The notes under the pieces are model-generated. The model was not told the origin of the DNA. It saw only the letters and a program-made list of their open reading frames with translations, and ran no database searches. The position numbers and the translations under genes were made by a program. A DNA stretch of 64,000 nt, from NCBI RefSeq assembly GCF_022045235.1, contig NW_027266266.1, forward strand, positions 46,128,001-46,192,000. The letters are read 5' to 3'. Source of the stretch: Haliotis cracherodii. Lineage: Eukaryota. The stretch's first letter is position 1. Each line of letters opens with the position of its first letter. This document shows positions 7,227-64,000 of the stretch, one piece after another.

Positions 7227-7395
7227 ATGGAGATACGTGTAGCTGATGATGGTGGAGATGAGATGACGCTGCTCAGCTACAATGGCCGCAAGTATTCGTT
7301 TTGGCCGGAAGCTCTCCAGTCCAACCCATTGGAGAGATTACCATCTGTTGAAATACGCCCTGACGACATTATAATATGTGCTTTCCCTAAGTCAG
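7227..7395 (+). CDS. Cytosolic sulfotransferase SULT-1 (SULT1-like), coding exon 1 of 5; join 7227-7395,8392-8715,9021-9121,10107-10251,10972-11087 = 284 aa
   Basis: ATG...MEIRVADDGGDEMTL...RPDDIIICAFPKS-G|GTAGGT; 5'-PSB loop split by a phase-1 intron. Confidence 0.93.
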
Positions 7396-7527
7396 GTAGG
7401 TAAACGAATACATGTTTCTTATCAATACAACAGTCATGATGTCAGTTCAATTGGTTAGCCTATGTCAGGCTATATTGATGACAAGATTGTGACATTATAA
7501 AGGAACTCATTTAAGTCATATCAACAA

Positions 7528-7700
7528 GTGAGTGAGTGAGTGAAACCCACGAGCACGGGTCTGGTGCTAACAAACATAGAAATATCATCGGAGCGAACCG
7601 GGATTCGAATCCCACAATCATAGGTTTCTGGCGTGCCCAAGGGACGCAATTCTGCACAGCGAATTGCGGCACCTTAGACGACTGGGCCACCCGTGCCCCC
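7528..7700 (-). mobile_element. tRNA-derived SINE (family D) in SULT-1 intron 1
   Basis: Minus strand reads GGTGGCCCAGTCGTCTAAGG...GATTCGAATCCC, with a (TCAC)n tail and TATCAACAA flanking duplication. Confidence 0.7.
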
Positions 7701-7881
7701 TATCAACAATGACGTTATGCATACAGTGACGTTATACGAGATATGCAGTGACGTGCCAGAAAGTATGCAGTTGAGTTTTACAAGAACAATGTAACTTAGT
7801 GTATGAATAACGTGACGTACATATAGAACGTCAACGTCGGAGAGCATGAAGTCTCGAATATCTGCCGAATTAGATTTTATT

Positions 7882-8111
7882 GTGCTTGTACTAGTCCGGA
7901 CTGATGCCGATTTTTAGTGTTAGCCCATGCCGCAGTTTAACATGAATACCCTACTCAGACATAGTATACTGACTCCAAGCCGACCAGTCCGTGTTTTAGC
8001 CCCTTAATGCCGGGCGCCAGACAGGGCATTAACAAGTACCATCTTTTAACGTTTTTTCGTATGACGCAGCCGGGGAGCGGACGTTCTTCCACTAGACCAC
8101 CGGCGGCGGTC
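7882..8111 (-). mobile_element. SINE family B (partial)
   Basis: Homologous to the full copy at 14005-14420. Confidence 0.8.
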
Positions 8112-8391
8112 TGTGTATACAAGAAGTCACGTAAACCATGTGAAACAATGTCCTAGCAGATCATTCCATCGTTACATATTTGTTTTATTTCAGCCACAAT
8201 CAGACAATGTGTTGCGTGGCTTTGACCTAATCTAATGCTCGTCATTATTAGTTCCACATTTTAATACATTATATTAAATGACGACCGCCAGTGGCGTCCT
8301 TATGAGTAACAGAAGTAGCAAGTAGTTCACATCCTGGAACGAGACATAACTTTGCCAAAGCCACTAAACTTAATAAGATTTTACTTAACAG

Positions 8392-8715
8392 GTACCCACT
8401 GGGTTTGGGAGATTGTTCGCCTGCTGGTGGCGGGACAACTCGACCGTGATGAAGTCAGCAAAGGGTCTAACATGATGGAATTTGCAAGTGAAGAAGAATA
8501 CAAAGATCTCCCTTCTCCCAGAATTCTTAACACTCATTTGTTGTTCAGCCAACTTCCAGAGCAGGTTAAAGTGAAGAAACCTAAGATACTGTACTTAACT
8601 CGGAACCCCAAGGACATGACTGTGTCTTTTTACAACTTTGTAATGAAACTGCCTATGTACTACAAATACACTGGAGAGTGGAACAACTTCGTCCGACCCT
8701 CACTGGAGGGGAAGT
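8392..8715 (+). CDS. SULT-1 coding exon 2
   Basis: AG|GTHWVWE...PRILNTH...RNPKDMTVSFY (catalytic His, 3'-PB motif)...EGK T|GTGAGT; 324 nt. Confidence 0.95.
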
Positions 8716-9020
8716 GTGAGTGATTTTCTCTCTATTAACACATTGGTGAACACAACTCACACATGGGTTCCTCCATCGGTTGTGTCAAGGTACATTGATC
8801 ACGTATTAGAATCCGAAACACGTCCCGATTATGACCCTTGGTTTATCAGCACAATACGCTTGGTCGTGGGTTTTACCAAGGATGTCGACCTCATCACTTA
8901 AGGCATTCCTCCGTCATTTCTGAAAATGTGATATAACTACAAAACTGTTCAAAACGACGCTAGGCTCAACTCTTTTACCCTTCAACATATTTCTCACCAT
9001 GATTTGTGACCTTATTTCAG

Positions 9021-9121
9021 TTGACTACGGTTCCTGGTTCGACTATGTGAAGGACTGGGAGGAGGTGAAGAAAACCACTGACGTCCCCATAATGACACTC
9101 AACTATGAAGACATGAAAGAG
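9021..9121 (+). CDS. SULT-1 coding exon 3
   Basis: DYGSWFDYVKDWE...YEDMKE; AG/GT flanks, 101 nt. Confidence 0.93.
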
Positions 9122-10106
9122 GTACAGGTCTTCCTTGTTATTCCAGTGTTTACAAGGCACAGGGGCTTATAATACCAGGTTCTTTGTAGGGTCGGTGGGA
9201 TTGATAAAACTCGTTACACTGAGGTCCGGGTTGTAATCAACATATGCCATGCATGAAACCAAAGAGTTCCCGCTTCTGGAATGTCGATAAGAGCGGCGTA
9301 AACCCCACCTCACTCACTCATGCCCATTGCTCTGATCGATGCAAATCATTATATTAGTATTTCATCACGACATTGTATGTTATGGGTGCCACCGGTGGCC
9401 ATGGCACGCTAACCTTTATGCAGACATCTGGTATCATCATTATTTAATGAACACATGCTCATGATATAATCGGTTTTCCTATGGACATTGAAAGGGTTTT
9501 GTCGCTATTCACATTCATTAATTGGTTATTACAGGACGATTATTATATATTATATTATAAGACTTGAAATCATGACTTTTCAATCTGATATGAGCATTAC
9601 TTAGTGGTCTAGTGTTCACGTAACCATTTCTATTTTCATCATGACGTGGGTTCATGTTAATCATTTTAATGTATTTAGGATATTAACGTGTTTATCACAG
9701 TTGCGTTAATGGTAAGTGTTTTATTGTGTTCAAGATATTAATGTTTTTACTACGACGTGTGTTGTTGTTCGTGGTTTTGCTGTGCTCAGGACATTGGTGT
9801 TTTGATCGTGATGTGTGCACATGTTCATTCATTTGGTGTGTTCAGGCACGCGTTCCACAAAGCGATCTTAGCGCTAAGACAGTCAATTCCCATACTCAAA
9901 CAAATCGTTCAACGATCGTCGTAGCGCCCGAACGCTTTATGTAACGGGTCCCTGGATATCAGTGTTTTGATTACGAAATGTGTACATGTTCATTTATTTG
10001 TTGCGTTCAAGATTTTGATATGTTTTTTTTTATTACGGCGTGTATTCTTACTTACTGCTTTGAGTTGTCGAGATATGAATTACGTCGATGTTCTGTTTGT
10101 TCAAAG

Positions 10107-10251
10107 GATGTATTCCGCGAGATGAAGAAAATGCAAGACTTCCTTGGTGTCAAAAGAAGTGATGAGTTTGTGAAGGAAGTGTGTGATCACTGTAGCTTCA
10201 CCTCCATGAAGAAAGTCAAGGCAGACATGGCAAATATTGTGTATAGGAAGG
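10107..10251 (+). CDS. SULT-1 coding exon 4
   Basis: DVFREMKKMQDFLG...CSFTSMKK...YRK-G|GTGAGT; 145 nt. Confidence 0.92.
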
Positions 10252-10971
10252 GTGAGTATTTACCTCACACTCCGCTCTGTGGAAAGGCATATCTAGCAAT
10301 GTGAGCATTAATCACCCGGTAGGCTCTGTGGCATATACAACTAGAAAATATGAGTATTTACTTACATTGCGATCTGTGTAATGGGATATCAACAAAATAT
10401 GAACGTTTATCTGATTGTCAAACGGCCAGTGTACGGGATCTGTGACACTGTCTGTGTCCTGTCATCAATAGTTATGTAGATATGAGATAAGTCTATGCAC
10501 CAAGGTGCAGGCTACTTCACGGAAACATTTCACTGCACTGCCACCATCAGGTACGATAGTCTATGTTGAGATATTGCACTTTGCCAATGATGAAACGATT
10601 CATCATTGAAATATCTAATCATGCATGTGGCGTGGGTGACTCTAAGGCGATCTTTTTCTCCTTTATGAAATCCTCGCATTTCCTCAAGATTTCTACCCTA
10701 TCGTGTAGCATCGTTCAGTGTGCCGTTTGCTTATGCTGTATATTCACTGTCATTCTCCTCGTGTCCACATAAGAAGGTTTGAGATACGAGGTTGTTATCA
10801 CGTCGTAGTTTGTTAAGGAAACCAATGCTAAGCTTATCTGTGTCAACTGCGTCTTTGTGACTAACACCAGAATTATCAGCAATGCTAAGTTTTCAGATCA
10901 TTAATGTCATACACACATCAATGCAATGTTATAAGATTTGATTCATACATTAATTGCTGGTTTTGTTTCAG

Positions 10972-11087
10972 GTGAGGTTGGCGACTGGAAGAACTGGTTC
11001 ACTGTCGCTCAAAATGAGTGGTTTGATCAAATCTACGAGCAGAAGATGAAAGATTGTCCTTTGGAGTTCAGATATACATTGAAATAA
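10972..11087 (+). CDS. SULT-1 coding exon 5
   Basis: [16 protein letters not shown] (RKGxxGDWK and KxxxTVxxxE motifs), TAA stop; AATAAA at 11922. Confidence 0.95.
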
Positions 11088-16599: not shown

Positions 16600-19500
16600 A
16601 CGCCAGTCTTGCAGTCAATGTAGACGTACGTCACACCACGGGGACTGTCGATCTCAGTGCAGCGCTATGTGACTCCGTGCGAACTGTAGGATCACACTAT
16701 ACTGGAACGTCTCACAGTGACGGCTGTAGGATCACATTGTAGTGGTACGTCTCACAGTGACGGCTATAGGATCACACTATACTGGAACGTCTCACAGTGA
16801 CGGCTGTTGGATCACAGTGTACTGGTACGTCTCACAGTGACGGCTGTAGGATCACAGTGTACAAGTATGTCTCACTGTGACGGCTATATGATCACAGTGT
16901 ACTAGTATGTTTCACTGTGATGGCTGTAGGATCACAGTGTACTGGTACGTCTCACAGTGACGGCTGTAGGATCACAGTGTACTGGTACGTCTCACAGTGA
17001 CGGCTGTAGGATCACAGTGTACTGGTACGTCTCACAGTGACGGTTATATGATCACAGTGTACTAGTATGTCTCACAGTGATGGCTGTAGGATCACAGTGT
17101 ACGGGTACGTCTCACAGTGACGGCTATATGATCACAGTGTACTAGTATGTCTCACAGTGATGGCTGTAGGATCACAGTGTACTGGTACGTCTCACAGTGA
17201 CGGCTGTAGGATCACAGTGTACTGGTATGTCTCACAGTGACGGCTATAGGATCACAATGTACTAGTATGTCTCACAGTGACGGCTGTAGGATCACAGTGT
17301 ACTGGAATGTCTCACTATGACGGCTATACGATCACAGTGTACTAGTATGTTTCACTGTGATGGCTGTAGGATCACAGTGTACTGGTACGTCTCACAGTGA
17401 CGGCTGTAGGATCACACTATACTGGAACGTCTCACAGTGACGGCTGTAGGATCACAGTGTACTGGTATGTCTCACTGTGACAGTTATATGATCACAGTGT
17501 ACTAGTATGTCTCACGGTGACGGCTGTAGGATCACAGCATACTGGTACGTCTCACAGTGACGGCTTTAGGATCACAGTGTACTAGTATGTCTCACAGTGA
17601 CGGCTGTAGGATCACAGTGTTCTGGTACGTCTCACAGTGACGGCTGTAGGATCACAATGTACTAGTATGTCTCACAGTGACGGCTATATGATCACAGTGT
17701 ACAAGTATGTCTCACAGTGACGGCTGTAGGATCACAGTGTACTAGTATGTCTCACAGTGACGGCTGTAGGATCACAGTGTACTGGTACGTCTCACAGTGA
17801 CGGCTGTAGGATCACAGTGTACAAGTACGTCTCACAGTGACGACTGTAGGATCACAGTGTACAAGTATGTCTCACAGTGACGGCTGTAGGATCACAGTGT
17901 ACAAGTATGTCTCACAGTGACGGCTGTAGGATCACGGTGTACTAGTATGTCTCACAGTGATGGCTGTAGGATCACAGTGTATTGGCATGTCTCACAGTGA
18001 CGGCTATATGATCACAGTGTACTAGTATGTCTCACAGTGACGGCTGTAGGATCACAGTGTACTAGTATGTCTCACAGTGACGGCTTTAGGATCACAGTGT
18101 ACAAGTATGTCTCACAGTGACGGCTGTAGGATCACGGTGTACTAGTATGTCTCACAGTGATGGCTGTAGGATCACAGTGTACTGGTATGTCTCACAGTGA
18201 CGGCTGTAGGATCACAGTGTACAAGTATGTCTCACAGTGACGGCTTTAGGATCACAGTGTACTGGTATGTCTCACAGTGACGGCTGTAGGATCACAGTGT
18301 ACTAGTATGTCTCACAGTGACGGCTGTAGGATCGCAAAGTAATAAACGTCACACCACGGGGGTTGTAGGATCACAATGTACTGGTACGTCTCACAGTGAC
18401 AGCTGCAGGATCACAGTGTACTAGTATGTCTCACAGTGACGGCTGTAGGATCACAGTATACAAGTATGTCTCACAGTGACAGCTGTAGGATCACAGTGTA
18501 CAAGTATGTCTCACAGTGACGGCTGTAGGATCACAAAGTACTAAACGTCACACCACGGGGATTGTAGGATCACAGTGTATTGGTACGTCTCACAGTGACA
18601 GCTGCAGGATCACAGTGTTCACAAACGTAATACCACATGGGCTATATGATAGCAATGTACTAACACGTCACACCATGTGGCCTGCAAGATCACAGTGTAC
18701 TTAAACATCGCACCATGTGTGCTGTAGGGTCACAGTGTACCAAAACATCACACCATGTGTGCTGTAGGATCACAGTGTACTAAAACATCACACCATGTGT
18801 GCTGTAGGGTTACAGTGTACTTAAACATCACACCATGTGTGCTGTAGGGTTACAGTGTACTAAACCATCACACCATGTGTGCTGTAGAATCACAGTGTAC
18901 TAAAACATCACACCATGTGTGCTGTAGGATCACAGTGTACTAACACATCACACCATGTGTGCTGTAGGGTTACAGTGTACTTAAACATCACACCATGTGT
19001 GCTCTAGGGTCACAGTGTACTAAACCATCACACCATGTGTGCTGTAGAATCACAGTGTACTAAAACATCACACCATGTGTGCTGTAGGATCACAGTGTAC
19101 TAACACATCACACCATGTGTGCTGTAGGGTTACAGTGTACTAAAACATCACACCATGTGTGCTCTAGGGTCACAGTGTACTAAAACATCACACCATGTGT
19201 GCTGTAGGATCACAGTGTACTAAAGCGTAAGACCATGTGGACTGCAAGTTCACAATATTCTAGAACATCACACCATGTGGGCTTTAATATCGCAATGTAC
19301 TAAAACGTCACTCCATGTGGGATGTAAGATCCAATATACTGGTACGTCACACCATGTGGGATATAGGACCAATATGTACTAGAACGTCATATCATGATGG
19401 CTTTAGGATCTGAATGACAAAGAACGTCACTCCATATGCGGACTGGTGGATATCAGTGTTCTGTTAATGTCACACCTGGGGGGCTATAGGATCTCAGAGT
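16600..19500. repeat. 40-bp minisatellite in two subarrays: (ACTRGTAYGTCTCACAGTGACGGCTGTAGGATCACAGTGT)n about 16650-18620 and (TAAAACATCACACCATGTGTGCTGTAGGATCACAGTGTAC)n about 18660-19500
   Basis: 40-nt period throughout, about 70 units. Confidence 0.96.
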
Positions 19501-19861
19501 AGCAGCACGCCACACCATATCAAGGCAGTTTCACGTCAGACCTTGAGGCCTGTGTGGTCACTCAGTAGTAAGTAGCATGGCACATCACATCAAGGTAAAA
19601 GCGCTTTTCAGTATGCAGATGAAGTGGTCAATAAGAAGTAGTACCACACACTATAATAGCAAAGCAGCCCCTTGACGTCAGTGTATTGTCAAAATTTAAG
19701 TCTTTCCGGAAACGTTGTTTGTTCGAAAATACCCATTCTTAGCAAAATGTCACTATTCACTGTATGACATGTTTCGTTTCAGATTCAAATCGCGTGTGAC
19801 CATTTAGACGCTTCATACACTCTGCTCACCAGGTGAACGAACACGACGACCTTCCGTTACC

Positions 19862-20030
19862 ATGGCGACGCGTGTAGCCGATGATGGTGGTGATGAGATG
19901 ACTCTGCAAAGCCACAATGGCCGGAAATATCCTTTCTTTCCCTCCGCTGTTCAGCACAGTACATTAGAGAGATTACCATCTGTTGAAATCCGCTCTGACG
20001 ACATTCTAGTGTGTGCTTTCCCCAAGTCTG
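19862..20030 (+). CDS. Cytosolic sulfotransferase SULT-2, coding exon 1 of 5; join 19862-20030,20972-21295,21627-21727,23458-23602,24331-24446 = 284 aa
   Basis: MATRVADDGGDEMTL...RSDDILVCAFPKS-G|GTATGT; 169 nt. Confidence 0.92.
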
Positions 20031-20331
20031 GTATGTAAAATCATATGAGTTTTTTTTATCAATGAAACAGTACTTCCTCTTTATTTGTTTGTTGTTTAAT
20101 ACCATAATTTGCTCATAATAGAGTCTGGACCAGTAATTGACATCATGAGCATCGATCCACGCAATTAAGATACATGTACGATGACATGCATCAACCAAGT
20201 CAGCGAACCTGGCCACCCGATCCTTCGGGGCCCAACTATCTTCGGACATGATGTATTCTCCTTGCAGTGACGTAGTAAAGTATGAAGTGACATTATACAA
20301 GTACAACGTAACGTAGTGTATGCATGCGGTG

Positions 20332-20695
20332 AGGTCAAACGTCGCGTCAAAGATAATTGCACTTATATAGCGTGTGTGCGTGAGTATGTGTGTGTGTGTG
20401 TGTGTGTGTGTGTCTGTGTGTTTGTGTGTGTGTGTGTGTGTGGCTGTGTGTGTGTGGCTGTGTGGCTGCTTGTACTAGTCCGGACTGATGCCGATTTATA
20501 GTGCTAGCCCACTGAGATACCATGCCGCAGTTTAACATGAATACTTACTCAGACATAGTATACTGACTCCGAGCCGACAGTCCATGTCTTAGTCCCTTAA
20601 AGCCAAGCGCCAGACAGGGTAACAACAAGTACCATCTTTTAACGTTTTTTTGTATGAGGGAGCGGACGTTCTACCGCCAGACCACGGAGGCGGTC
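20332..20695 (-). mobile_element. SINE family B in SULT-2 intron 1
   Basis: Same position and same 3' flank as 7882-8111 in SULT-1. Confidence 0.85.
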
Positions 20696-20971
20696 TGTGT
20701 ATGCATGAAGTCACGTAAACCATGTGAACAATGTCCTAACAGATCATTCCATCGTTACATACTTTTTTTTCAGCCAAAATTAGACAGTGTATTGCAAGGC
20801 TTTGATCTAATGTAATGCTCGTCATTATTAGTTCCACATTTTATTACATTTTATTAAATGACGACCGCCAGTGGCGTCCTTATGAGTAACAGAAGTAGCA
20901 AGTAGTTCACAGCCTGGAACGAGACATTACTCTGCCAAAGCCAGTAAACTTAATAAGATTTTACTTAACAG

Positions 20972-21295
20972 GTACCCACTGGGTTTGGGAGATTGCTCGC
21001 CTGCTGGTGGCGGGACAACTCGACCGTGATGAAGTCAGCAAAGCGTCTGCCATGATGGAATTTGTCAGTGAAGTAGAATACAAAGATCTCCCTTCTCCCA
21101 GGATTCTTAACACTCATGTCATGTTCAACGAACTTCCGGAGCAGGTTAAGTTGAAGAAACCTAGGATAGTGTACGTGACTAGGAACCCCAAGGACGTGAC
21201 TGTGTCTTATTACAACTTTGTGAAGAAACTGACGATGTGCTACAACTACACTGGAGAGTGGAAGAATTTCTTTCGACCCTCATTGGAGGGGAAGT
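20972..21295 (+). CDS. SULT-2 coding exon 2
   Basis: GTHWVWE...PRILNTH...RNPKDVTVSYY; AG/GT; 324 nt. Confidence 0.95.
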
Positions 21296-21626
21296 GTGAG
21301 TGATTTCCATCTTTCCTAGTTGAAACAATAGTGCACACAGCTTAGGCATATATGTACTACAGGCGATAGTCAGTATTTTCCTCTTACAAATCACGGTTCT
21401 ATCCTCGATTGGTTGTGTCAGGGTACTTTTATCACAGGCTCGAATCCCAAATTCCTCGAGGTTGATCATTGATCTATCAGCAAATTCACTTGGGCGTGGT
21501 TTCTACCAAGGCGTCCGATGTCTTCGAACTTTAAAATGTCCAAAGCGTCGTTAACCCAAATTTCTGACTCTTTAACCTTATCCTGACCAGCGTTGTGTGA
21601 CGTCATGAATGTGTACCTTATTTTAG

Positions 21627-21727
21627 TTGACTACGGTTCCTGGTTCGACTATGTGAAGGACTGGGAGGAGGTGAAGAAAACCACTGATGTCCCCATTCTG
21701 ACACTGAACTATGAAGACATGAAAGAG
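21627..21727 (+). CDS. SULT-2 coding exon 3
   Basis: DYGSWFDYVKDW...YEDMKE|GTAAGC. Confidence 0.93.
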
Positions 21728-21905
21728 GTAAGCGTGGCCATTGCAATAAATTCCAGATATGGCCCTTTAATGAATTTAGGGTCATTTCTTAAAGGGATCT
21801 GGCAGGCCTTGTCGTTGTTTATCATTACACGTTAGGATAAACGACGTCAAGGCTTGCCAGATCTCCAGGGGTTTTACGAAGGAAGCGTCGTGTCTTCGTC
21901 CAGGT

Positions 21906-22095
21906 TAGATGAGTTGAAATGGGGTAATGTAAATGGCGTTCGAGATTATTGCACTTATATAGCGACGTGCAACGCCAGGCAGGGTAACAACAAGTAACAT
22001 ATTTTAGCGTCGTTTGGTATGACGCGGCCGGGGATAGAAGCCCCGACTTACCGTTCTCCGGGTGGAAGCTCAACCACTTGACCACAGAGGCGGTC
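21906..22095 (-). mobile_element. SINE family B, internally deleted
   Basis: Head and tail present, central domain missing. Confidence 0.7.
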
Positions 22096-22543
22096 TGTTC
22101 GTCTTGGATAGTGTTCATGATCTTTGTCTTGGTGTGTATAGGGTAAAGCGCGTTCATCACGACGTGTAGCCTTCTTTTATTTTATTAGTAGGGTATTTAC
22201 GAGATATTCGAGAGTTCATCGCGATTTGCTTCCTTGTGTTTGTTTCTTGATACGGTTTTTACGAGACGTTCGTGTGGTCGTGTTCATTATTGTGATGTTT
22301 GCGATTTGCAAACTATTTGCAAAGGCAAGGGCATGAAGCAGTAAAATAAGCAGTCTTTAACCCTGTGTAAATGGACATACTTAATCACTGCACATTCCTA
22401 AAGTTTTCCATTTTCCAAAGGTCTTAGACCGCTGCTAATTATCCCAATTTGATCAACCGACTCAAGTGTCTGTGCAGATACCTCTAAGAATTCATGGAAG
22501 GTCTACAACAAAATATTTCACGTCTTTGAAAGGCATTTAGAAG

Positions 22544-22791
22544 TGTTTGTTTGTTTGTTGCTTAACGCCGCACTAAGCAATATTCCAGCTATATGACGGC
22601 GGTCGGAAAAATAATCGAGTCTGGACCAGAAAATCCAGTGATTAATGTCATGAGCATCGATCCACGCGATCGGCATCGATAACACGCATCAACCAAGTCA
22701 GCGAGCCTGACCTGCCGAACCCAAGTATAGTGGCCTTTTACGGCATGCATGGGTTGCTGAAGACATATGCTACCCCGGATTCTTCACGGGT
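22544..22791 (-). mobile_element. SINE-like family C
   Basis: Reverse complement of 45189-45455. Confidence 0.8.
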
Positions 22792-23457
22792 CGCATTTAG
22801 TGATTCACATAAGGAAAGAGAATATATGGATGTGAACACAACGTTTCGGAGTATATGCTTACTCCTTCATCGGGTGAAGATATTTCACTATTACGGAATT
22901 CCTTCTATCCTATAAAGGGTTCAGTTATCACGAGCTGAGTTTGACAATCCGGCAATGCTTGAGTGTGTGAATTAAGTGGAATATTGCCAAAAGCAGCCAG
23001 TAAAAAAACCCTAGTCACTCATTATTAGTTTAACCTGGTATAGGCCCTAGATGTTGACCTCGTTGTTGAAACCCACGAGCACGGGTATCATACTCCCAAT
23101 TTAGGATTAAAATCAGGGCGAATCTGGAATTCCGATACACCCAGTGATTAACGAATCATGCCAAGCACCAAACGATTTCCCAGGGCGCAATGAAAACAAC
23201 CCACACATCCAAAAGTATTATCTTGTCTTTTCATGTTGGAATCGTTTAAATTGCGGCAGTTACTGTGGACATCGTTGATAATGATGTCATAAATATTAAC
23301 AGAAAGCATTCCGCGAACATGGTCAATACAGAGCTATAGTGTTGATGCAGCAATTTAACTTGTAGGGACATTTCATGTTTTCATAACGACGTATATTTGT
23401 GTTCTTTTTATTGCGTGGATAGAAAATGGGTGTTGATGATTTTCTATATGTTCAAAG

Positions 23458-23602
23458 GATACATTCCGCGAGGTGAAGAAAATTCAAGACTTCCTTGGAA
23501 TTGAGAGAAGTGATGAGTTTGTGAAGGAAGTATGTGATCACTGCAGTTTCGGCTCCATGAAGAAAGTCAAGGCAAACATGGCAGAGGTCGTGTACAGGAA
23601 AG
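23458..23602 (+). CDS. SULT-2 coding exon 4
   Basis: DTFREVKKIQDFLGIER...VYRK-G|GTGAAT; 145 nt. Confidence 0.92.
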
Positions 23603-24263
23603 GTGAATGTGTATTGCCAATGATTAAAATCTCGGTCATGTCATCAAGATAGGGAGAAGCTTATATCGTATCTGTAAGGTGGAAACACTACAGTGTACCG
23701 CTACCAAGGTATGATGGTCCTTGGTAAGTTATTGTAAAGTCTACGTCGACTTATTGGCTATTCAAAGTCCCTCATAAGAAATCCGGATAATCCTCGATTA
23801 TTAAATGTTGATTAAATTATACAAAAAATATTTGGTAAGAGTGGAGTCCAATACTTCGCCAATGATGAATCGACAACCAATGGCATGATTTGAGTATAGA
23901 GTTATGCAGGTAGACTGAATGACATTCTTTGTATCTTGTTTCTCTTTATAAAATTTGCGCATTGTCCATGACACGATCTTACCAATAGTCTCTAATCAGC
24001 ACATTTGACCAATATTGTGTTTGATCACTAATGTTGGACATTCCTATTCCTAACAAGCATATTCAGCTCATGCGAATGTGGTAGAGATTAACAAGGATCT
24101 GGAACTATTATTCTGTGTGCCACTTGCTTGTTTTGATGTTCGCTGCCATTATCCTTGTAACGATTTGGGATTGTTAAACTCTTTCCTGTGTCGAGCGCAG
24201 CGTTAGTGACTCACATAAGTATTACCATTAACTTGAAGTTTTTTTTGTACCGTTTGTTCATAA

Positions 24264-24446
<183 letters not shown>

Positions 24447-25212
24447 CTGTTGTGGGCAGAAGGGGCGAATTTAAGTGCGTGTTTGAGAGAATTGGTAGAG
24501 TTTTAGAGTTGATAGGAGTGTGAGAGAGTTTATGCCTTACGTCACATCGGCAATATTTCAGCCATATCGTGACGATAGAGTTGATAGGATTGGATGGAGT
24601 TTATAGTAAATGAAAGCGGGAAGTGCGGTGTGGAGTAATTGGAAGCGACGAGAACGGGTGATGCGGAAGAAGTGTGTTCAATGGCAAGATGCTGTGGAGT
24701 GGCTGGACTGACTAGAACACCTAGCGTCAGCGAGCAAGGGGAAGGTGTATGTAGAGAGATAGGCTGAGGGTGTGTCATCACCGATTTTCAGTAGTTCATT
24801 CATATAATTTTCACCGCTTGTTTGCCTTATTACCTAGCATTGACGTATCAATCCATATGCGTCTTGTTTGATGGTGTGATATATTTACATATTCTGTTAT
24901 TATATTGCAACTGAAATATTAGTTCTACACATTCAGATAACAATATGATCCTCGCATTACGGTCAGGCAGTCGTCCATGTGTACTCAGCGTATTGTTTTC
25001 GGGACAAAATGATAGCGTGACTGAATGCTGTATGAAAGCAGACACTATATGCTAAGGGTGTTTGTGCGCACAGCCCAGGGCGCAAGCTTGTGTCAATAGG
25101 TGTGTGCGAACATAGCGTGAATGGGTAGCAAAGTTCGACTTTTGTATCTTTATATCAATGATGAGCTGTATACCTGAAATAAAAAAATTAAAGAATTTCC
25201 ATTTGAACCTTG

Positions 25213-25284
25213 GTGACTCAGCATTCTGATGAAACTGCCATGACAACAAAGTATATTTAAGAGGCTGATCCTTCAGTGGTGAGT
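25213..25284 (+). promoter_or_regulatory. Putative SULT-3 promoter: ARE + CARE motifs, TATA-like, Inr-like, donor
   Basis: GTGACTCAGCA-TTC-TGATGAAAC, TATATTTAA at about 25252, TCAGT at 25273, GTGAGT at 25279. Confidence 0.5.
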
Positions 25285-25926
25285 ATCGTAGTGTAACGTT
25301 TGTTGTCTCTCTTGACATGACAACCATGTCATGAACTGAGTGAAGTTTTAAGTAACTGTGAACATAGGTTGTGAACAGCAGCTGGAGTAGGTAATATAAT
25401 TGTGCAAAAAAACATTAGGTTAATAGCATTCAGAGGAGGATGCCCTTACGTTGAAATATAACAATCAGAGCATATTCGGATCCCGGACGCAGTGTCAGTG
25501 TGACTTACCCAAGCTGTGTAAAGAAAGTCAGTCTGGTTTTTTACATATCCTAGACAGCTGACCTAGATTATGTGGATGACCGTAAATTGGTGAATTTATG
25601 TTGTGTTGTCGTATCACCGGTTGTCCCCACCAGCCCCTGACAGCCGTGAGGTAACTACACGCGGACCAGTGAGGAGGCCGCTCCATCCACACGTGCAAGT
25701 ATTCCGATTGAGTCACTGTGTTTGTCAATGTGAATGTCAGGGTAATACTATCTAGTTCACGGTTTGGATAAGGCACATCACGTAACGGCCCGCAGCTGTG
25801 TGATATAAACAAACATCGTACCCTATGAATAGGCTAGATAGAGCAGGACCTGACGGTTGGAAAGGATTGTGGTTAAGAGTAATCTCAAGAACTCACCTTT
25901 ATAGAAAGGTATGGTGCCGTTAGTTT

Positions 25927-25942
25927 ACAACAACAACAACAA

Positions 25943-26013
<71 letters not shown>
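25927..26013. repeat. (CAA)n(CTA)n microsatellite
   Basis: Directly visible. Confidence 0.97.
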
Positions 26014-26190
26014 AATGTCACGCTTGCATCCCAAGTACCAAGTTTTCCGACTCCCCATTGTTCTCGGTGCCTTAGGTTTGGTACTTCCCAATCTGTTGAC
26101 TGACATTGGGATAGTACCCAGGTTGGCTACCAGGAATACTCCCGATACGCCACGGAGGCGGTCCTGTGTCAAGGTGATGTTAGGCGTCAG
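26014..26190 (+). mobile_element. 3' fragment of an RLE-type (R4/Dong/NeSL-like) non-LTR retrotransposon
   Basis: SRLHPKYQVFRLPIVLGALG resembles the PhVhGALG motif at the end of restriction-like endonuclease domains. Confidence 0.45.
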
Positions 26191-26354
26191 GTTTATTCAA
26201 AGTTTGAAATAGTACAATTGTCATTGCCTTTGGTGGTATGCTGGTAACACCACGAGATTGCAAACTGAATATTAGAGTTAGGTTTATGGTCAAAGTTTAT
26301 ACATGTATACATGACATCACCTTAATAACTTCTAAGGTAAAATGAGGTAGGGGT

Positions 26355-27075
26355 ACGTGTTATAATGTGCTACACGTTACAATATTACGTGTTATAATGT
26401 GTTACACGTTACAATATTACGTGTTATAATGTGTTACACGTTACAATATTACGTATTATAATGTGTTACACGTTACAATATTACGTGTTATAATGTGTTA
26501 CACGTTACAATATTACGTGTTATAATGTGCTACACGTTACAATATTACGTGTTATAATGTGTTACACGTTACAATATTACGTGTTATAATGTGCTACACG
26601 TTACAATATTACGTGTTATAATGTGTTACACGTTACAATATTACGTGTTTTAATGTGCTACACGTTACAATATTACGTGTTATAATGTGTTACACGTTAC
26701 AATATTACGTGTTATAATGTGTTACACGTTACAATATTACGTGTTATAATGTGCTACACGTTACAATATTACGTGTTATAATGTGCTACACGTTACAATA
26801 TTACGTGTTATAATGTGTTACACGTTACAATATTACATGTTATAATGTGCTACACGTTACAATATTACGTGTTATAATGTGTTACATGTTACAATATTAC
26901 GTGTTATAATGTGCTACATGTTACAATATTACGTGTTATAATGTGTTACACGTTACAATATTACGTGTTATAATGTGCTACACGTTACAATATTACGTGT
27001 TGTAATGTGTTACACGTTACAATATTACGTGTTATAATGTGCTACACGTTACAATATTACGTGTTATAATGTGCT
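26355..27075. repeat. 32-bp minisatellite (ACGTGTTATAATGTGYTACACGTTACAATATT)n, about 22 copies
   Basis: Near-perfect 32-nt period. Confidence 0.97.
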
Positions 27076-27149
27076 ATCGCAAACCAGTGGACCGTAAAGT
27101 ATATATGACAGTCCTAGTAAAGCAACTCGGAGCACGTTGTATTTGATGT

Positions 27150-27646
27150 GTTTGTTTATTGTTTAACGCTGCACTCAGAAATAAATAAAGTCAGCGAGCC
27201 TGACCGACACCTGATCCACTTTGTTCACCTCGTAGGACCAGCATTTTTGTATGTTGTTTAACGCTGCACTCAGCGATATGCCAGCTATGTCACGGCGGCC
27301 TGCAAGTTATAAAATCTAGACTATATTCAGTCAGCTATATCGAGAGCAAAGAGTCACCTCGCCAGGGTACAATATACGCACTATACCAAGTCACCGAGCC
27401 TGACCTCCTGATTAATTTTGTCGGCTCTTACGATATGCACACGTGTATGTTTTGTTTTTGTTTGTTAGTTGCTTACCGCCGCCCGCAGCAATATTCCAGC
27501 TATGTATTCCGTCTGTAAATAAACGAGTCTGGACCAGACAATCCAGTGTCTGAGATCATGATCATCGATCTACGCAAATGGGTTGAGGTGAGGTGAAATG
27601 GGTTTTAACGTCGCGTCCAAGATTATTGCACTTATATAGCGATGTG

Positions 27647-27687
<41 letters not shown>

Positions 27688-28071
27688 CTGCTTATACTAC
27701 TCCGGACTGATGCCAATTTATAGTGCTAGCCCACTGAGATACCATGTCGCAATTTAACATGAATACCCAACTCAGTCACCGTGTACTGACTCCGAGCCGA
27801 CCAGTCCTGGTTTTAGCCCCTTTATGCCAAGCGCCAGACATGGTAACAACAAGTACCACCTTTAATGTATTTTGGTATGACGCGGTCGGGGATCGTAAGC
27901 TCTACCACTAGACCACAGAGGCGGTTTACGCAATTGGGATACGTGACATGCATCAACCAAGTCAGCGAGTCTGACGACCCGATCCCGTTAGTCGCCTCTT
28001 ACAACAGCATAGTCGCCTTTTACGGCAAGCATGGGTTGCTGAACACCTATTCTACCCCGGATCTTCACCGG
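27150..28071 (-). mobile_element. Cluster of family C copies with a family B SINE (27584-27925) nested inside
   Basis: 12-bp TSD TACGCAAATGGG (27571) / TACGCAATTGGG (27927) flanks the B copy. Confidence 0.82.
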
Positions 28072-28440
28072 TCACACATATATTTTGTTGTAAACATTTT
28101 GTAACCCGGAAACCGCATGGGTAAGTTTTTAAGGTGTTGTCATTTGACCGGAAAAGCATATAACATGGCAAAGTGAGACAATGAATAAACAATAATTTTG
28201 GCAGAGGTTTTAAGTGAAAGGAATTGAATGTTTGAAGCAGTGACAAAACAAATGGTCCATTTCTAGCATGAATCCTAGGTATTTTGATTAGATAAGTATA
28301 TGTATTTCCGGCATAATTATATCGTATCCGGTTTGGGAAAATCTATAATAAAGAATATAACTTTAATCAATCCCCTCGTTATACTTCATTTTCAGACGCT
28401 CTGTTCATAGGATTGACGAATTCGACGACCTGCAGTCGCC

Positions 28441-28612
28441 ATGGAGTTGATACATGTAGCCGATGATGGTGGAGATGAGATGACGCTGGTAAACTACAAT
28501 GGCCGCAAATACCCAAAGTTTCCCGGATCTATGCAGACCAAACCAATAGAGAAATTACCATCTGTTGAAATCCGCTCTGACGATATTCTGGTGTGTACGT
28601 TCCCCAAGTCAG
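28441..28612 (+). CDS. Cytosolic sulfotransferase SULT-3, coding exon 1 of 5; join 28441-28612,29087-29407,29719-29819,30810-30954,31740-31855 = 284 aa
   Basis: GCCATGG Kozak context, MELIHVADDGGDEMTL...VCTFPKS-G|GTAGGT; 172 nt. Confidence 0.93.
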
Positions 28613-29086
28613 GTAGGTAAACTGTTTTTATCAATACAGTAATATAATTATGACAACATCTTCGAGATCAGAAATCACAGCCTTGTTACAATCGCTTGTC
28701 TACATCACGATGTCCGAAGATGGAGAGAATATCAACCTGGTGGCGAATGTCGGGTGTTTTGTCATACAAAAATATTAACATAAATGGGTTTCCCGAAGAA
28801 TCGTAGGAAGAAAGAAGTTGTGATACTGTTATGTAATAATTGTCAAATTTACCCAAACAAAGGCGAGCAGTGACGTAATTCAGATATTACACAGTTCATA
28901 GCTTGTCGTTAACCACAATTGTAATTTCAACCAAAGTGAAACAGTGTAGTCTATGACTTTGGTTTGTTTGCAGGGTACATATCATTATATTACATTACTG
29001 TCCCATTGTGGCCCTACCATTATTAGCAGCAGTAAAACTACGAAAAACATCGAAACCACGAACCTCAATATGGTATTACTATCCAG

Positions 29087-29407
29087 GTACCCACTGGGTC
29101 TGCGAGATGGTTCGCCTGCTGGTGGCGGGACAACTCGACCCTGATGTCGGCAAAGGGTTTCACTTGATGGAAGGTTGCAGTGAAGATGACTATAAAAATC
29201 TCCCTTCTCCAAGAATCCTCAACACTCATGTGTTGTTCAACGACCTTCCGGAACAGGTTAAAGTGATGAAACCTAGGATCCTGTACGTGACAAGGAACCC
29301 CAAGGACGTGACTGTGTCTTATTACAACTTTGTGAAGAAACTGACGATGTGCTACAACTACACTGGAGAGTGGAAGAATTTCTTTCGACCCTCACTGGAG
29401 GGGAAGT
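29087..29407 (+). CDS. SULT-3 coding exon 2
   Basis: GTHWVCE...PRILNTH...RNPKD; AG/GT; 321 nt. Confidence 0.95.
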
Positions 29408-29718
29408 GTGAGTGATTTTCTATCATTCTTAGATTAAACAGTGCACACAACTCATGCAAACATGTACTGTAGGTGATGGTCAGGATCTCCCTCTGACAAA
29501 TCAACACATCAATCATGGTTCTTTACTTGAATGGATGATCAGTATGGTCCTTGGTTTATCAGCACCTTCTCGTTTGAGTTGAGGGCTTTCGTCCGACATT
29601 TCTGAAATGGCATGATGTGAATTATAATCTTTTAAGGTGGTGTTAGACGTACACAACTCTGTAACTCTTCGACGTATACCTGACCATGAATTTGTGACCT
29701 TTGTGTCCAATATTGTAG

Positions 29719-29819
29719 TTGACAACGGTTCCTGGTTCGATTATGTGAAGGACTGGGAGGAGGTGAAGAAAACCACTGATGTCCCCATACTGACGATTAA
29801 CTATGAAGACATGAAAGAG
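29719..29819 (+). CDS. SULT-3 coding exon 3
   Basis: DNGSWFDYVKDW...YEDMKE|GTAAGC. Confidence 0.93.
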
Positions 29820-30809
29820 GTAAGCGAGGCCATTGCAATGATTACCAAAATGTTTTCCCGAAATATCGGCCTGTGAAATTTTGAACTTGAAATGTTAGAT
29901 AATTGTCAGTGATTTATTTATCGTTTCTTATTTTATTCCTAAATATATACGTCCCAGTACTGAAATAAATCTTGGTGTTGCTGGGGCCTTAATTATTCAA
30001 ACACACATGGCAGCCTTTGTTCCATTATGACTATAATTATGATTTAATTGAAATGAGTGTCAAATATTGGCCACTCCAGCTGAAGATGTTGCTTCATATA
30101 CTGTCATGGATAAAGGCCTTTCTTCGTAATGCTCTGGTCGTACTGGGCGATAAGTCACTGTCATACCTTTTCGAATTAATAGTTTCGTGAGTTTTGTACA
30201 ACATTAATCTTGTTTTTCTCAGAAGATGACCTTAGCTGATTGACTTTCTCACTTACTCTTGTAGTTACACCGAAGCAGTATTTACATACAATGTTAACAT
30301 TGCAATCTCTCAGTAAAGAAACATTCAGGACAGCTTAAAGTGTGAGACCTTTGCTTGTCTTTTGACTCCCATTGACAATTTTTCTTTTGTAGAGATTTTT
30401 TTTTCTGTATCCTATCCACATATTCTACAAATAGATGCTTTTGAATTTGGAGACAAATCCAATTTCCAATCAAAAATATTTTTCAGACAATTTTTGCAAG
30501 TTGGCCCTCCAGCTTTCAAAAAACATTGTAAAAAACAAGTTTCAAAATGCGTCTGAAGAAATAGTATTAGGGAATGGAAGGGTTGTGGACCAGGCCACTA
30601 GATGGCATCAGTTATCTGGTTAGACTCCATGGAGTGAGAACAGAGCTTGGGAAAGGACCAATAAGCTTTTTGTTTCCATAAAAAAACCATATATTTTCAG
30701 AGACTAAGCGTCAGTTTAGATATCAGTCTGTTTCTCATGACGTGTGTTCATGCTTATAGTTTCGGTTTGTTCGGGATATGAGTGACGTTTAAGTTTTATC
30801 TGTTAAAAG

Positions 30810-30954
30810 AATCTGTTCCGCGAGATGAAAAAAATACAAGCCTTCCTTGGAATTAGGAGGAGTGATGAGTTTGTGAAGGAAGTGTGTGATCACTGCAGCT
30901 TCGCCTCCATGAAGAAGAGCAAGGCAGCAATGTCCGCGGTCACGTATAGAAAGG
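30810..30954 (+). CDS. SULT-3 coding exon 4
   Basis: NLFREMKKIQAFLG...TYRK-G|GTGGGT; 145 nt. Confidence 0.9.
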
Positions 30955-31349
30955 GTGGGTATTTCTCTCCTAGGACGCTCCGCGGAATGGAACATCTAGG
31001 AACTGTAATTATTGTCTGCCCAGTATGCGCTGTGGAATGATTATCGAGAAAAGGTGAAAATATTTTTCCTTTACGCCCTGTGGAGTGTGATAACTGTAAA
31101 ATGTGGGATAGTGTTGTTTCATGTCAGCTATAGTCATGTAGATATAAGGCAGGTCTATTAATCAAGGTACGGTTACTTTACACCGTAGTAAGTTATGGAA
31201 ACACTGCACAATACTGCTGCATAAGGTAGCACAGGGAGTCCTTTGCAAAAATCACCTCGACTTCTTGACCTTTCATTGAGATGTCTAATCATAATAGGTG
31301 GAGTAGATGACTTTATGGCGATCCTTTTTACCCCCACATTATTTACGTA

Positions 31350-31523
31350 CAGTAAACTACGGTTATAACGAACTCAAAGGACCACATATTTTAGTTCGTA
31401 GTAACCGTAGTTCGCTATAAGCATATATACAGAATATATACAACAAATGGCCGGGACTAAAAAATAAGTTCGTTATATAGGTAAGTTCGTTATAAGCATG
31501 TTCGTTATAAACGTAGTTTACAG
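31350..31523. mobile_element. Tc1/mariner-type MITE, second copy
   Basis: Same TIR and body as 14750-14924, TA flanks. Confidence 0.85.
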
Positions 31524-31739
31524 TATGTTGACATAAGCTGTAACCCACATTTTTTACCAATCATCATATTGTGTTTGATTAGTAATATTGGACATCCCTA
31601 CTCCTGTAACAATTTTAGATAGTTATTTAATGGAAAAGATGATACTCTTACCTGGGTCGAACATTATTTCTCTTACTAACATAAGAATTGAATGCAATAT
31701 TCTAACATGTTATTCATACATAAATTTCTGATATTTCAG

Positions 31740-31855
31740 GTGAAATTGGGGACTGGAAGAATTGGTTCACTATCGCGCAGAATGAGTGGTTTGATCAAAT
31801 CTACAAGGAGAAGATGAAAGATTGTCCTCTGGAGTTCAGATATACATTGAAATAA
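31740..31855 (+). CDS. SULT-3 coding exon 5
   Basis: [16 protein letters not shown]...TLK stop; AATAAA at 32791. Confidence 0.95.
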
Positions 31856-32598: not shown

Positions 32599-32760
32599 GG
32601 GGTCGGTGGGGTAGCCTAATGACTAAAGCGTTCGTTCATCACGCCGAAGCCCCGGGTTCGATTCCCCACATGGGTACAATGTGTGAAGCCCATTTCTTGT
32701 GTCCACTGCGTGATATTGCTGGAATATAGCTAAAAGCGGCGTAAAACTATACTCACTCAC
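32599..32760 (+). mobile_element. SINE family A in presumptive SULT-3 3'UTR
   Basis: tRNA head, body, (ACTC)n tail. Confidence 0.85.
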
Positions 32761-33309: not shown

Positions 33310-33332
33310 GTGACTCAGCAGTCTGATGAAAC
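33310..33332 (+). promoter_or_regulatory. ARE + CARE composite motif upstream of SULT-4
   Basis: GTGACTCAGCA-GTC-TGATGAAAC. Confidence 0.5.
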
Positions 33333-34294
33333 ACATTACATAGTTGCCATAATAACAAAATAAGACTACTTTTAGGATATTAGATGCATTATTGTGTGCC
33401 AGTCGTCCCTTTGAACTTAGCAGTCTGTGTTCGGGAAAATTGACAGCCGAATGTTTAGACAACTTGAACGTATATCGTATGAAAGAAGACGCCATGACTT
33501 AATGGTGTACACAGATTCTGCCCTGGAAGTCCCCAGCTTGTGGCATTAAGTATGTATGAGCAGCGTGTGAAAGGCGGGGCCGGGCAATTTAAAGCTGGCC
33601 CTTTTGGTGACACAACAGCCTGCTATACAACTGCTGCGATAACCTAGTATCAGTCAGTCTGAGTATATGTTGTGTTATGGTGCATAGCATTCCGTATGTA
33701 TGCTTTCTTGACCAACTGGTGTCTCACAGACGTATGGTGGGTTAAGGTGGTGGGTCAGTTCAATATTATTTCATCTTTACAGTTACCTTCGGGCTGTATG
33801 TGTGGCTGCTTGTACTAGGCTAGACTTATGCCAGTTTTTGCAGCGCTTGCCCAATGAGACACCATGCCGCAGATTAATATCGATACCCCACGGATATGGA
33901 TACATTATACTGACTGAGAGTCGAACAGACTGGGTAACATTTCATCCCTTATAGTCAATGTATTTTGCCATGACGTGGTTAGAGATCGAACAACCGATTT
34001 TTTCCGCGCTCCGTACATATGCTCTATCCATTCCACCATGGAGACAGTCATGGATTCCTGAGGGAAGAACTCTATGTCCAGTATCGAGAATACATGCATA
34101 CACACATTGCACACATCCGAACTTCCAGTTTATTTATATCGTTTCCGGGTCAGGAACACCATCTCCAATACAGTATTACTACAAACTTCCCCCTCAATAT
34201 ATTTCAGTTGTCCACTCAAGTTAATTATATCCACATTCAGGTGCTCCAGATGCTCTGATTATTGGTGCGAAGAAACTGACGATCTGCAGTTGCC

Positions 34295-34439
34295 ATGGGG
34301 ACTATACATGTAGCCAATGATGGTGGAGATGAGTTGACGCTGATAGACTACAATGATCGCAAATACCCAAATTTCCCCCGATGTATGGGGTCAAAACCAC
34401 TTGGGAGATTACCATCTGTTGAAATTCTTTCTGATGATA
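34295..34439 (+). pseudogene. SULT-4 relic: truncated exon 1 only
   Basis: MGTIHVANDGGDELTL...VEILSDD then Tc1 sequence; FPKSG codons and donor deleted; intron-1 homology resumes at about 34926 and ends at about 35229; no exons 2-5. Confidence 0.88.
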
Positions 34440-34925
34440 CTCTCTTCCTGACCTTGGTCTGTCGTCAACTCTGTGTTGTTGTATCGGGTCCACAGTGCGG
34501 AGATTGTCTGTCTGGATACGCCAAAGTGCCTGGCCACTTCTTGCTGAGTTGCTCCAGCTTGTAATCTCCCAATGGCGTTGTTCCGTTGAGCTGCATTCAG
34601 TCTTGGCATTCTGTCACCGCCTCTACTGTCGTTATAAGGACTGTATAAAAAGCCGTTGATGTGGATTTTTATACCCATTCAGCAGGGGGGCCTGCAAGCC
34701 TAAATGTAGGATCCTGTGCTGCACGTTTTTTACAGGCGGTTGCGTTTGGATGAAGCTGTAAAATTGATCCCAAAAAGCTACGTTTATGTGCTTTGCATGT
34801 GTTTTCGCGAATTATAGACACATCATCTTTCTGTTTGACTTATGTGGTTCTCATTTAAAGTAATTATTTTAGATATTTGGCAAAAAGTGGTTTTACATCT
34901 ATGTCAAGTTTCTTTTTTTCAAGAG
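34440..34925 (-). mobile_element. Tc1 transposon 5' fragment (TIR plus transposase HTH region)
   Basis: MPRLNAAQRNNAIGRLQAGATQQEVARHFGVSRQTISALW...DRPRSGR (ATG at 34609); terminus ACTCTTGAAAAAAAAGAAAC resembles the TIR at 59457. Confidence 0.88.
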
Positions 34926-63947: not shown

Positions 63948-64000
63948 ATCATTATATTGTGACAGGATACATGTATTTTACAGTATATGACTGGTCGTTC

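What the first reader, a model, noticed from the sequence alone, without database searches (positions are those of the whole stretch)
25213..25284. Composite Nrf2-ARE + ATF4/C/EBP-CARE module repeated upstream of phase II genes
Seen: RTGACTCAGCA followed 3 nt later by TGATGAAAC at 25213, 33310, 49426, 57620 and 62011. Knowledge: TGACTCAGCA is the canonical CNC-sMaf ARE and TGATGAAAC is the C/EBP-ATF element of the ASNS promoter (NSRE-1). The SULT-3 copy lies in much more diverged flanks just above a TATA-like box, so the motif pair outlasts its context. Four of the five copies come from recent duplication and are not independent. Inference: a fixed-spacing oxidative plus amino-acid/ER stress switch for an invertebrate SULT cluster.
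Basis: partly seen in the sequence, partly recalled or inferred. Interest (0 to 1): 0.7.

Follow-up and report, generated by a model that had tools for sequence, protein, structure and literature searches.

The report
Paired stress sites before abalone sulfotransferases
Several copies of an abalone detoxification gene carry two textbook stress-response DNA sites side by side upstream, which likely let oxidative and nutrient or ER stress switch them on, but all copies descend from one ancestral sequence and the spacing is not a genome-wide rule.

Summary
In detail: ARE (RTGACTCAGCA) + 3 nt + TGATGAAAC lies at all five places, in an abalone SULT1-like tandem cluster. The genome holds 6 exact copies, all in this cluster, plus a variant before an outlying paralog (GTGACGCAGCA-GTC-TGATGCAAT). 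No copy is independent: each upstream region has two homologous slots from an old internal duplication. The 25213 copy is in the proximal slot, with the distal slot deleted. The other genes keep the distal slot and have a decayed proximal one. Support for selection is moderate: among intact copies 0 of 13 consensus positions vary versus 5 of 10 free ones (p 0.0075), and the two right-hand variants are the two textbook ATF4 elements. Against: no genome-wide excess of 3-nt spacing (p 0.15); a related species breaks the ARE's GC at 25221; two copies are orphans and one precedes a gene fragment; G1 and G2 lack the pair; gene conversion can explain the 25213 copy. CNC, small Maf, ATF4 and C/EBP genes are present. 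Verdict: likely a real two-input bZIP stress element of a known kind (xCT/p62-like); 'fixed-spacing module' is not supported; function is untested.

The parts
25213..25223 (+). ARE / CNC-small Maf site GTGACTCAGCA, proximal slot upstream of SULT gene G3
   Evidence: consensus in PMC3488259; organism B reads T at 25221
25227..25235 (+). C/EBP-ATF element (CARE/AARE) TGATGAAAC, 3 nt after the ARE
   Evidence: identical to the ASNS element; organism B reads C at 25232, giving TGATGCAAC
25252..25261 (+). TATA-like TATATTTAAG; not kept in the G4, G8, G10 or G11 units; role unproven
25272..25284 (+). Conserved TTCAGTG-GTGAGT end of the unit: candidate donor of a non-coding first exon (GT at 25279) or start region; unresolved
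   Evidence: alignment of 8 units; RNA-type contigs read through it unspliced
24863..24911 (+). Decayed distal slot of G3, with an 8-bp gap against the intact ARE; now inside the likely 3' UTR of G2
   Evidence: local alignment score 89.9 versus shuffle maximum 69.1 of 200; RNA-type cover
25178..25183 (+). AATAAA, likely poly(A) signal of G2, 30 bp before the ARE
   Evidence: an organism C RNA-type contig ends 19 nt after 25179
33310..33332 (+). Intact pair, distal slot, upstream of gene fragment G4
33607..33629 (+). Decayed proximal slot of G4 (GTGACACAACA GCC TGCTATACA)
49426..49448 (+). Intact pair, distal slot, upstream of G6
49710..49732 (+). Decayed proximal slot of G6; its ARE half now reads TGATGCAAC, a CARE-type site
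57620..57642 (+). Intact pair in an orphan promoter fragment, no SULT start exon after it
62011..62033 (+). Intact pair, distal slot, upstream of G7
62295..62317 (+). Decayed proximal slot of G7 (GTGACGCAACA GTC AGATATGAA)
28441..31855 (+). SULT gene G3, five coding exons, ATG to stop
51141..54124 (+). SULT gene G6; exons A and B are joined in RNA-type contigs
   Evidence: (records 5 and 16)
63404..64000 (+). Start of SULT gene G7 (runs past the window end)
34295..34456 (+). G4, exon A only (fragment)
41004..42335 (+). G5, exons A and B only; upstream unit disrupted, no pair
7227..11087 (+). SULT gene G1; no pair and no matching upstream unit found
19862..24446 (+). SULT gene G2; no pair and no matching upstream unit found

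Best explanation
This is a side-by-side pair of an antioxidant response element and a C/EBP-ATF element upstream of abalone sulfotransferase genes, inherited from one ancestral unit, that likely works as a two-input stress element. SHOWN: the sequence, its fit to both printed motifs, its place upstream of SULT genes, the two-slot layout, one intact pair per promoter in G3, G4, G6, G7 and G11, and the presence of CNC, small Maf, ATF4 and C/EBP genes. INFERRED: a CNC-small Maf dimer would bind RTGACnnAGCA when electrophiles or oxidants stabilise CNC. An ATF4-C/EBP-type dimer would bind TGATG(A/C)AA(C/T) when eIF2-alpha kinases sense amino-acid or ER stress. Either would raise SULT transcription. 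An old internal duplication made two slots per promoter; selection likely kept one working pair per gene and let the other decay (distal kept in G4, G6, G7, G11; proximal in G3, perhaps refilled from a distal copy by conversion). The 3-bp gap is best read as inherited, not as a required grammar.
For: Among intact copies 0 of 13 consensus positions vary versus 5 of 10 free positions (Fisher p 0.0075). It reads GTGACGCAGCA-GTC-TGATGCAAT. TGATGAAAC and TGATGCAAT are the two printed ATF4 elements. 13 of 13 kept against a four-fold-site baseline of 0.72-0.78: p 0.014-0.04. Five distal copies: 1 of 23 motif columns vary (the purine only) versus 42 of 204 flank columns, p 0.043; three decayed proximal slots show no such dip (8 of 23 versus 55 of 134, p 0.37). 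Reciprocal loss in G3: distal remnant score 89.9 versus shuffle maximum 69.1. GTGACTCAGCAG is inside the oligo crystallised with Nrf2-MafG (PMC9756947). Clam Nfe2l/MafK bind an ARE in EMSA (PMC11591149). Factor genes: CNC E 1.8e-30 to Nrf2, small Maf E 1.1e-33 to MafG, ATF4 E 7.5e-12, C/EBP E 1.8e-14.
Against: In organism B one contig (depth 37.8) over the G3 region has G>T at 25221, which breaks the ARE's GC. It shows 2 changes in the 22-bp motif versus 24 in the other 415 bp (p 0.38), so no footprint. Counting that change weakens the position test to p 0.035. Whole-motif identity to G11 (19-20 of 23) is not above the four-fold baseline (p 0.08-0.41). G3's motif is closer to the distal copies (21-22 of 23) than to its own positional homologues (13-15 of 23; p 0.009 and 0.07 below baseline), as conversion would give. 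The orphan copies 57620 and +68993 are as intact as the genic ones. The invariant block in the recent copies is wider than the motif (about 16 bp up, 9 bp down). G1, G2, G5, G8, G9 and G10 lack the pair. The p values are uncorrected, from several tests on related copies. In the fly gstD enhancer, deleting predicted ATF4 sites did not stop ER-stress induction (PMC8514241).
Confidence: 0.5

Rival explanations
1. The element is functional, but other bZIP factors use it, or only one half matters: AP-1 on the embedded TGACTCA, C/EBP or PAR-bZIP dimers on the right half, for tissue-level (digestive gland) rather than stress-induced expression.
For: Organism B keeps TGACTCA and a CARE but loses the Maf GC. 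The decayed proximal slots of G6 and G7 turn into TGATGCAAC and TGACGCAAC, C/EBP-type sites. The genome has 19 bZIP_2 matches, several PAR-like by eye. The ARE embeds a TRE that AP-1 can bind (PMC3488259). Fly gstD uses Xrp1, not ATF4, at overlapping sites.
Against: G11 changes the TRE (TGACGCA) but keeps the GC, which fits CNC-small Maf better than AP-1. All 7 intact copies in G000 keep both halves.
Confidence: 0.25
2. No selected function: recent tandem duplication copied the distal block, a short conversion put it into G3's proximal slot, and the G11 likeness is ordinary residual homology.
For: All copies are homologous. No genome-wide spacing excess. Whole-motif identity to G11 is within the neutral range. 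Organism B has an ARE-breaking change. Orphans and a fragment carry perfect copies.
Against: Changes avoid all 13 consensus positions in three lineages. The conversion tract would have to coincide with the motif. Each promoter with the unit keeps one intact pair while the sister slot decays at the background rate.
Confidence: 0.2
3. It is an RNA-level element (box C/D-like TGATGA/CTGA, hammerhead-like CTGATGA..GAAAC, or a signal downstream of G2's poly(A) site).
For: The words resemble those motifs (recalled, no call). One RNA-type contig spans 25103-25289, and AATAAA lies at 25178.
Against: No Rfam match over the element among 6 weak hits in 24700-34000. 5 of 5 folds are no better than shuffles (z 0.17 to 1.71). 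The copy at 49426 has no RNA-type cover in 3 runs, which shows no absence.
Confidence: 0.03

Closest known systems
Mammalian xCT/SLC7A11 and p62/SQSTM1 regulatory regions (ARE + AARE, Nrf2 and ATF4)
   Same: Both site types serve one cytoprotective gene. PMC6480217 (passages) calls these the only two genes known in 2019 to hold both elements; PMC7072240 (passages) repeats the xCT case.
   Different: Here the sites are 3 bp apart, in a mollusc SULT cluster, and untested. The xCT spacing could not be read (PMC4135628 not held); from memory the mouse xCT promoter also has them close together, which is unverified.
CNC-sMaf binding element / ARE (RTGACnnnGC; TGACDHDGC)
   Same: All 7 intact copies fit, with a 5' purine and A after GC; 12 nt of the G4 and G7 copies are inside the crystallised CsMBE2 oligo.
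   Different: Binding is not shown; the organism B copy at G3 fails the GC.
C/EBP-ATF response element (ASNS NSRE-1 TGATGAAAC; consensus TGATGCAAT)
   Same: 6 copies equal the ASNS form and 1 equals the consensus form.
   Different: ASNS also uses a second element, NSRE-2, which was not sought here; the partner is an ARE instead.
Drosophila gstD1/gstD2 enhancer (CncC input plus ER-stress bZIP sites in a phase II cluster)
   Same: An invertebrate tandem detoxification cluster with separate oxidative and ER-stress inputs; its predicted ATF4 sites include TGATGAAAT (PMC8514241, passages).
   Different: There the ER input runs through Xrp1, not ATF4, and the passages read describe no abutting pair.

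Membership tests
ARE / CNC-sMaf element | Sequence RTGA(C/G)nnnGC (TGACDHDGC) | tested here: met
   7 of 7 intact copies in G000 (consensus); not met in the organism B contig at G3
ARE / CNC-sMaf element | CNC and small Maf proteins present in the organism | tested here: met
ARE / CNC-sMaf element | Bound by CNC-sMaf and needed for electrophile induction | not testable with these tools
   needs EMSA, ChIP and reporters
CARE / AARE | Sequence TGATG(A/C)AA(C/T) | tested here: met
   printed forms. The general consensus TGATGXAAX is recalled; the one paper listed does not contain it
CARE / AARE | ATF4 and C/EBP proteins present | tested here: met
CARE / AARE | Bound by ATF4-C/EBP and needed for amino-acid or ER-stress induction | not testable with these tools
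   no stress RNA data laid
Functional cis-element | Better conserved than flanks | tested here: inconclusive
   met among paralogs (p 0.0075-0.043); not met against organism B (p 0.38) or for whole-motif identity to G11
Fixed-spacing composite element | One spacing recurs at unrelated loci above other spacings | tested here: not met
   gap 3 in 6 of 47 collapsed loci over gaps 0-12, p 0.15; 10 of 52 over gaps 1-6 (hand count of the first 100 of 109 matches)
Fixed-spacing composite element | Cooperative binding that depends on the spacing | not testable with these tools
   needs spacer-change reporters and EMSA
Promoter-proximal element | Lies just upstream of a mapped transcription start | tested here: inconclusive
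   the ATG exon begins at a conserved acceptor-like AG, so an upstream exon is inferred; no spliced first exon was seen and contigs cannot show a start

The most novel reading that the evidence does not exclude
A true cooperative composite: CNC-small Maf and ATF4-C/EBP dimers butt together across 3 bp and act as a spacing-dependent AND gate on a mollusc sulfotransferase family, so tightly selected that when G3 lost its distal copy the whole 23-bp pair was kept or re-installed in the sister slot. It would be a small natural test system for the Nrf2-ATF4 cooperation known from xCT, and a clean case of binding-site turnover between duplicated slots.
Probability: 0.15. Interest if true: 0.65.

Novelty: new member of a known kind. 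Interest (0 to 1): 0.35.

Why it matters
If functional, it extends joint Nrf2/ATF4 control from a few mammalian genes to a mollusc phase II family, and links abalone sulfation capacity to oxidative, starvation and ER stress. The cluster supplies natural controls: intact copies, decayed sister slots, paralogs without the pair (G1, G2) and a species with a broken ARE. It does not reveal a new genome-wide grammar.

Tried and rejected
Genome-wide spacing rule: tested with two patterns; no excess at 3 nt once duplicate families were collapsed by hand (58 to 47 loci; 100 listed to 52). The tool's reversed-pattern control (14 versus 58; 37 versus 109) was not used, because duplicates inflate the forward count and reversal changes the dinucleotide make-up. 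Other 3-nt loci: 110 of the longer ORFs in 5 of the 12 fetched loci (1048 ORFs in all 12) gave C1q, Ig, zinc-finger, SAP, YqaJ-like and transposase/HTH domains and no detoxification family; short exons could be missed. Homologous promoter elsewhere: a DNA search found only the cluster (2 matches). Metagenome scan: 3 hits without visible flank likeness, 2 of them bacterial-looking; read as chance. RNA structure and Rfam: nothing. Start-site mapping: no RNA holder on record. An apparent 5' end at 49733 is explained by the G3 contig of the same depth laid on G6 (record 5). No spliced first exon was seen; lack of cover is no evidence. Tree of the slots: unresolved, 0 of 8 branches starred, so the order of events is inferred from alignments only. 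The unit profile found no matching unit before G1 or G2. Earlier scan notes: none. Literature: 10 searches listed no paper on this element or cluster; most subscription papers are not held, the xCT primary paper was not held, and no supplements were read.

Full report
Observation. The pair TGACTCAGCA-N3-TGATGAAAC occurs exactly at 25214, 33311, 49427, 57621 and 62012; 0 of 100 shuffles reach five matches. These are the only TGACTCAGCA sites on either strand of the window. In the whole 1.18-Gb genome there are 6 exact copies, all in this cluster; the sixth is 5 kb past the window end.

Setting. The exons are cytosolic sulfotransferases (PF00685) whose best named relatives are Haliotis SULT1A1-like proteins. 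Mapping on the window plus 100 kb each side gives G1 (7227-11087), G2 (19862-24446), G3 (28441-31855), G4 (exon A only), G5 (exons A and B only), G6 (51141-54124) and G7 (63404 onward). Beyond the window lie G8 and G10 (a separate clade), G9 (with stops) and G11 (about +117342). G3, G5, G6, G7 and G9 fall in one starred clade that excludes G1, G2 and G11. RNA-type contigs join G6 exons A and B without a mismatch. Of the five copies, three precede a complete gene, one a fragment and one nothing.

Two slots. The alignment shows that the 25213 copy is not the positional homologue of the other four. Upstream of G4, G6 and G7 there are two related slots about 285-300 bp apart: an intact distal one and a decayed proximal one (33607, 49710, 62295). 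25213 is the proximal slot of G3. G3 also has a distal remnant at about 24863-24911 with an 8-bp gap through the ARE (score 89.9, shuffle maximum 69.1 of 200). G11 has two units 550 bp apart, found with a decayed-slot query: the distal reads GTGACGCAGCA-GTC-TGATGCAAT and the proximal is decayed. So G3, G4, G6, G7 and G11 each keep one intact pair, in different slots. G1, G2, G5, G8, G9 and G10 have no pair, although G8 and G10 share the unit's downstream end. A tree of the slots is unresolved.

Is it selected? For: among intact copies 0 of 13 consensus positions vary against 5 of 10 free positions (p 0.0075). The split uses TGACnnnGC from print and TGATGxAAx, which is recalled but matches the two printed forms. 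Keeping 13 of 13 against four-fold-site identities of 0.78 (G3-G11) and 0.72 (G6-G11) has p 0.04 and 0.014. In the five distal copies 1 of 23 motif columns varies against 42 of 204 flank columns (p 0.043), while decayed slots vary like their flanks (p 0.37). Against: whole-motif identity to G11 is within the neutral range (p 0.08-0.41). The invariant block of the recent copies is wider than the motif, and orphan copies are equally intact. G3's motif is 21-22 of 23 identical to distal copies but 13-15 of 23 to its own slot in G4, G6 and G7, which a short conversion would explain. One organism B contig over G3 has G>T at 25221 (breaks the GC) and A>C at 25232 (allowed), with 26 differences in 437 bp overall, so no footprint (p 0.38); 18 rows of that table were not shown. 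All p values are uncorrected and the copies are related.

Fixed spacing. With TGACnnAGCA-N0..12-TGATGnAAH there are 58 matches; after collapsing duplicate families by hand, gap 3 holds 6 of 47 loci (p 0.15; 0.28 without the SULT locus). With RTGASnnnGCA-N1..6 the first 100 of 109 matches collapse, by hand count, to 12, 4, 10, 8, 5 and 13 loci for gaps 1-6. Five other gap-3 loci show no detoxification domain among 110 ORFs scanned. The spacing is thus inherited, not a genome-wide rule; it may still matter locally.

Promoter position. The ATG exon starts after a conserved acceptor-like AG in the paralogs, so an upstream non-coding exon is inferred. The units end in a conserved G-GTRAGT-like word. 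TATATTTAAG lies only 27 bp before that GT and is absent from the G4, G8, G10 and G11 units, so it is either not a TATA box or the GT is not the donor. RNA-type contigs cover G2's likely 3' UTR up to about 25130-25200; one reads through the element, and one begins at 25272 and runs on unspliced. Contigs cannot show a start, so this stays open.

Mechanism. The genome encodes a CNC protein, a small Maf, an ATF4-like and a C/EBP-like protein. Clam Nfe2l/MafK bind an ARE in vitro (PMC11591149, passages), and a mussel Nrf2 ChIP-seq exists with no mention of sulfotransferase in its main text (PMC10587546, passages). The left site fits TGACDHDGC with a 5' purine (PMC3488259, passages), and GTGACTCAGCAG is part of an oligo crystallised with Nrf2-MafG (PMC9756947, passages). 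The right site equals the ASNS element (PMC8619229, one passage) or the AARE consensus TGATGCAAT (PMC6480217, passages). I infer that CNC-small Maf and an ATF4-C/EBP-type dimer bind next to each other, centres about 14 bp apart, with small Maf beside ATF4 (half-site assignment of the right site recalled), and that each can raise transcription under its stress (confidence 0.5). Other bZIP users (0.25) and neutral descent plus conversion (0.2) are the main rivals. An RNA-level role is disfavoured.

Comparison and novelty. ARE plus AARE control is known for xCT and p62 (passages). The fly gstD enhancer has both stress inputs but uses Xrp1, and deleting its predicted ATF4 sites had no effect (PMC8514241, passages), a warning against naming the factor from the motif. 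Ten searches (listings only, apart from the eight papers read in passages) showed no report of this element. The xCT primary paper was not held and no supplements were read, so a close precedent for the spacing may exist unseen.

Verdict. A real, likely functional pair of well-known sites in one gene family; a new member of a known kind, with reciprocal slot retention as its most interesting feature. Interest 0.35.

Noticed in passing
window 49710-49719 and 62295-62304: In the decayed proximal slots the ARE half has become GTGATGCAAC (G6) and GTGACGCAAC (G7), CARE- or CRE-C/EBP-like sites one or two changes from the ARE; organism B shows GTGACGCAAC too. A possible short path of bZIP site conversion.
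   Followed up: partly
window 24949-25132: Organism A RNA-type runs hold a second version with 17 differences from the window, most of them shared with organisms B and C: an old allele or an unassembled paralog.
   Followed up: no
window 25272-25650: Two RNA-type contigs run unspliced through the presumed first intron of G3 and by their lengths would both end near 25694; one begins at 25272.
   Followed up: no
window 4122-6870 and 16626-19518: Tandem repeat arrays lie directly upstream of the ATG exons of G1 and G2; these two genes share other upstream words (GAGACCATCCCTG, TCTCGATTTGACCCACATA) instead of the ARE-CARE unit.
   Followed up: partly
window 854-2053: 399-codon open frame with no Pfam match, probably the last exon of a neighbouring gene.
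   Followed up: partly
window 60009-60713: Tc1/mariner-type transposase remnant between the orphan copy and G7.
   Followed up: no
G000:C45:15270088-15272864: A tandem array of about 29-bp period whose unit matches ARE-N1-CARE (37 listed matches).
   Followed up: no
L044:401-421: A perfect ARE-GTC-CARE pair lies beside an exon of an intron-containing aldehyde dehydrogenase gene in an unnamed metagenome record; one hit, chance not excluded.
   Followed up: partly
L027 (G000:C8:29567791): A weaker pair with the same GTC spacer (TGACGAAGCA-GTC-TGATGTAAA) lies within a C1q-domain gene cluster, about 600 bp downstream of one C1q exon.
   Followed up: partly
G000:C1:68170991, C10:21878534, C45:60138160: Three unrelated loci have a perfect TGACTCAGCA 8 bp before a CARE; their neighbouring genes were not scanned.
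   Followed up: no
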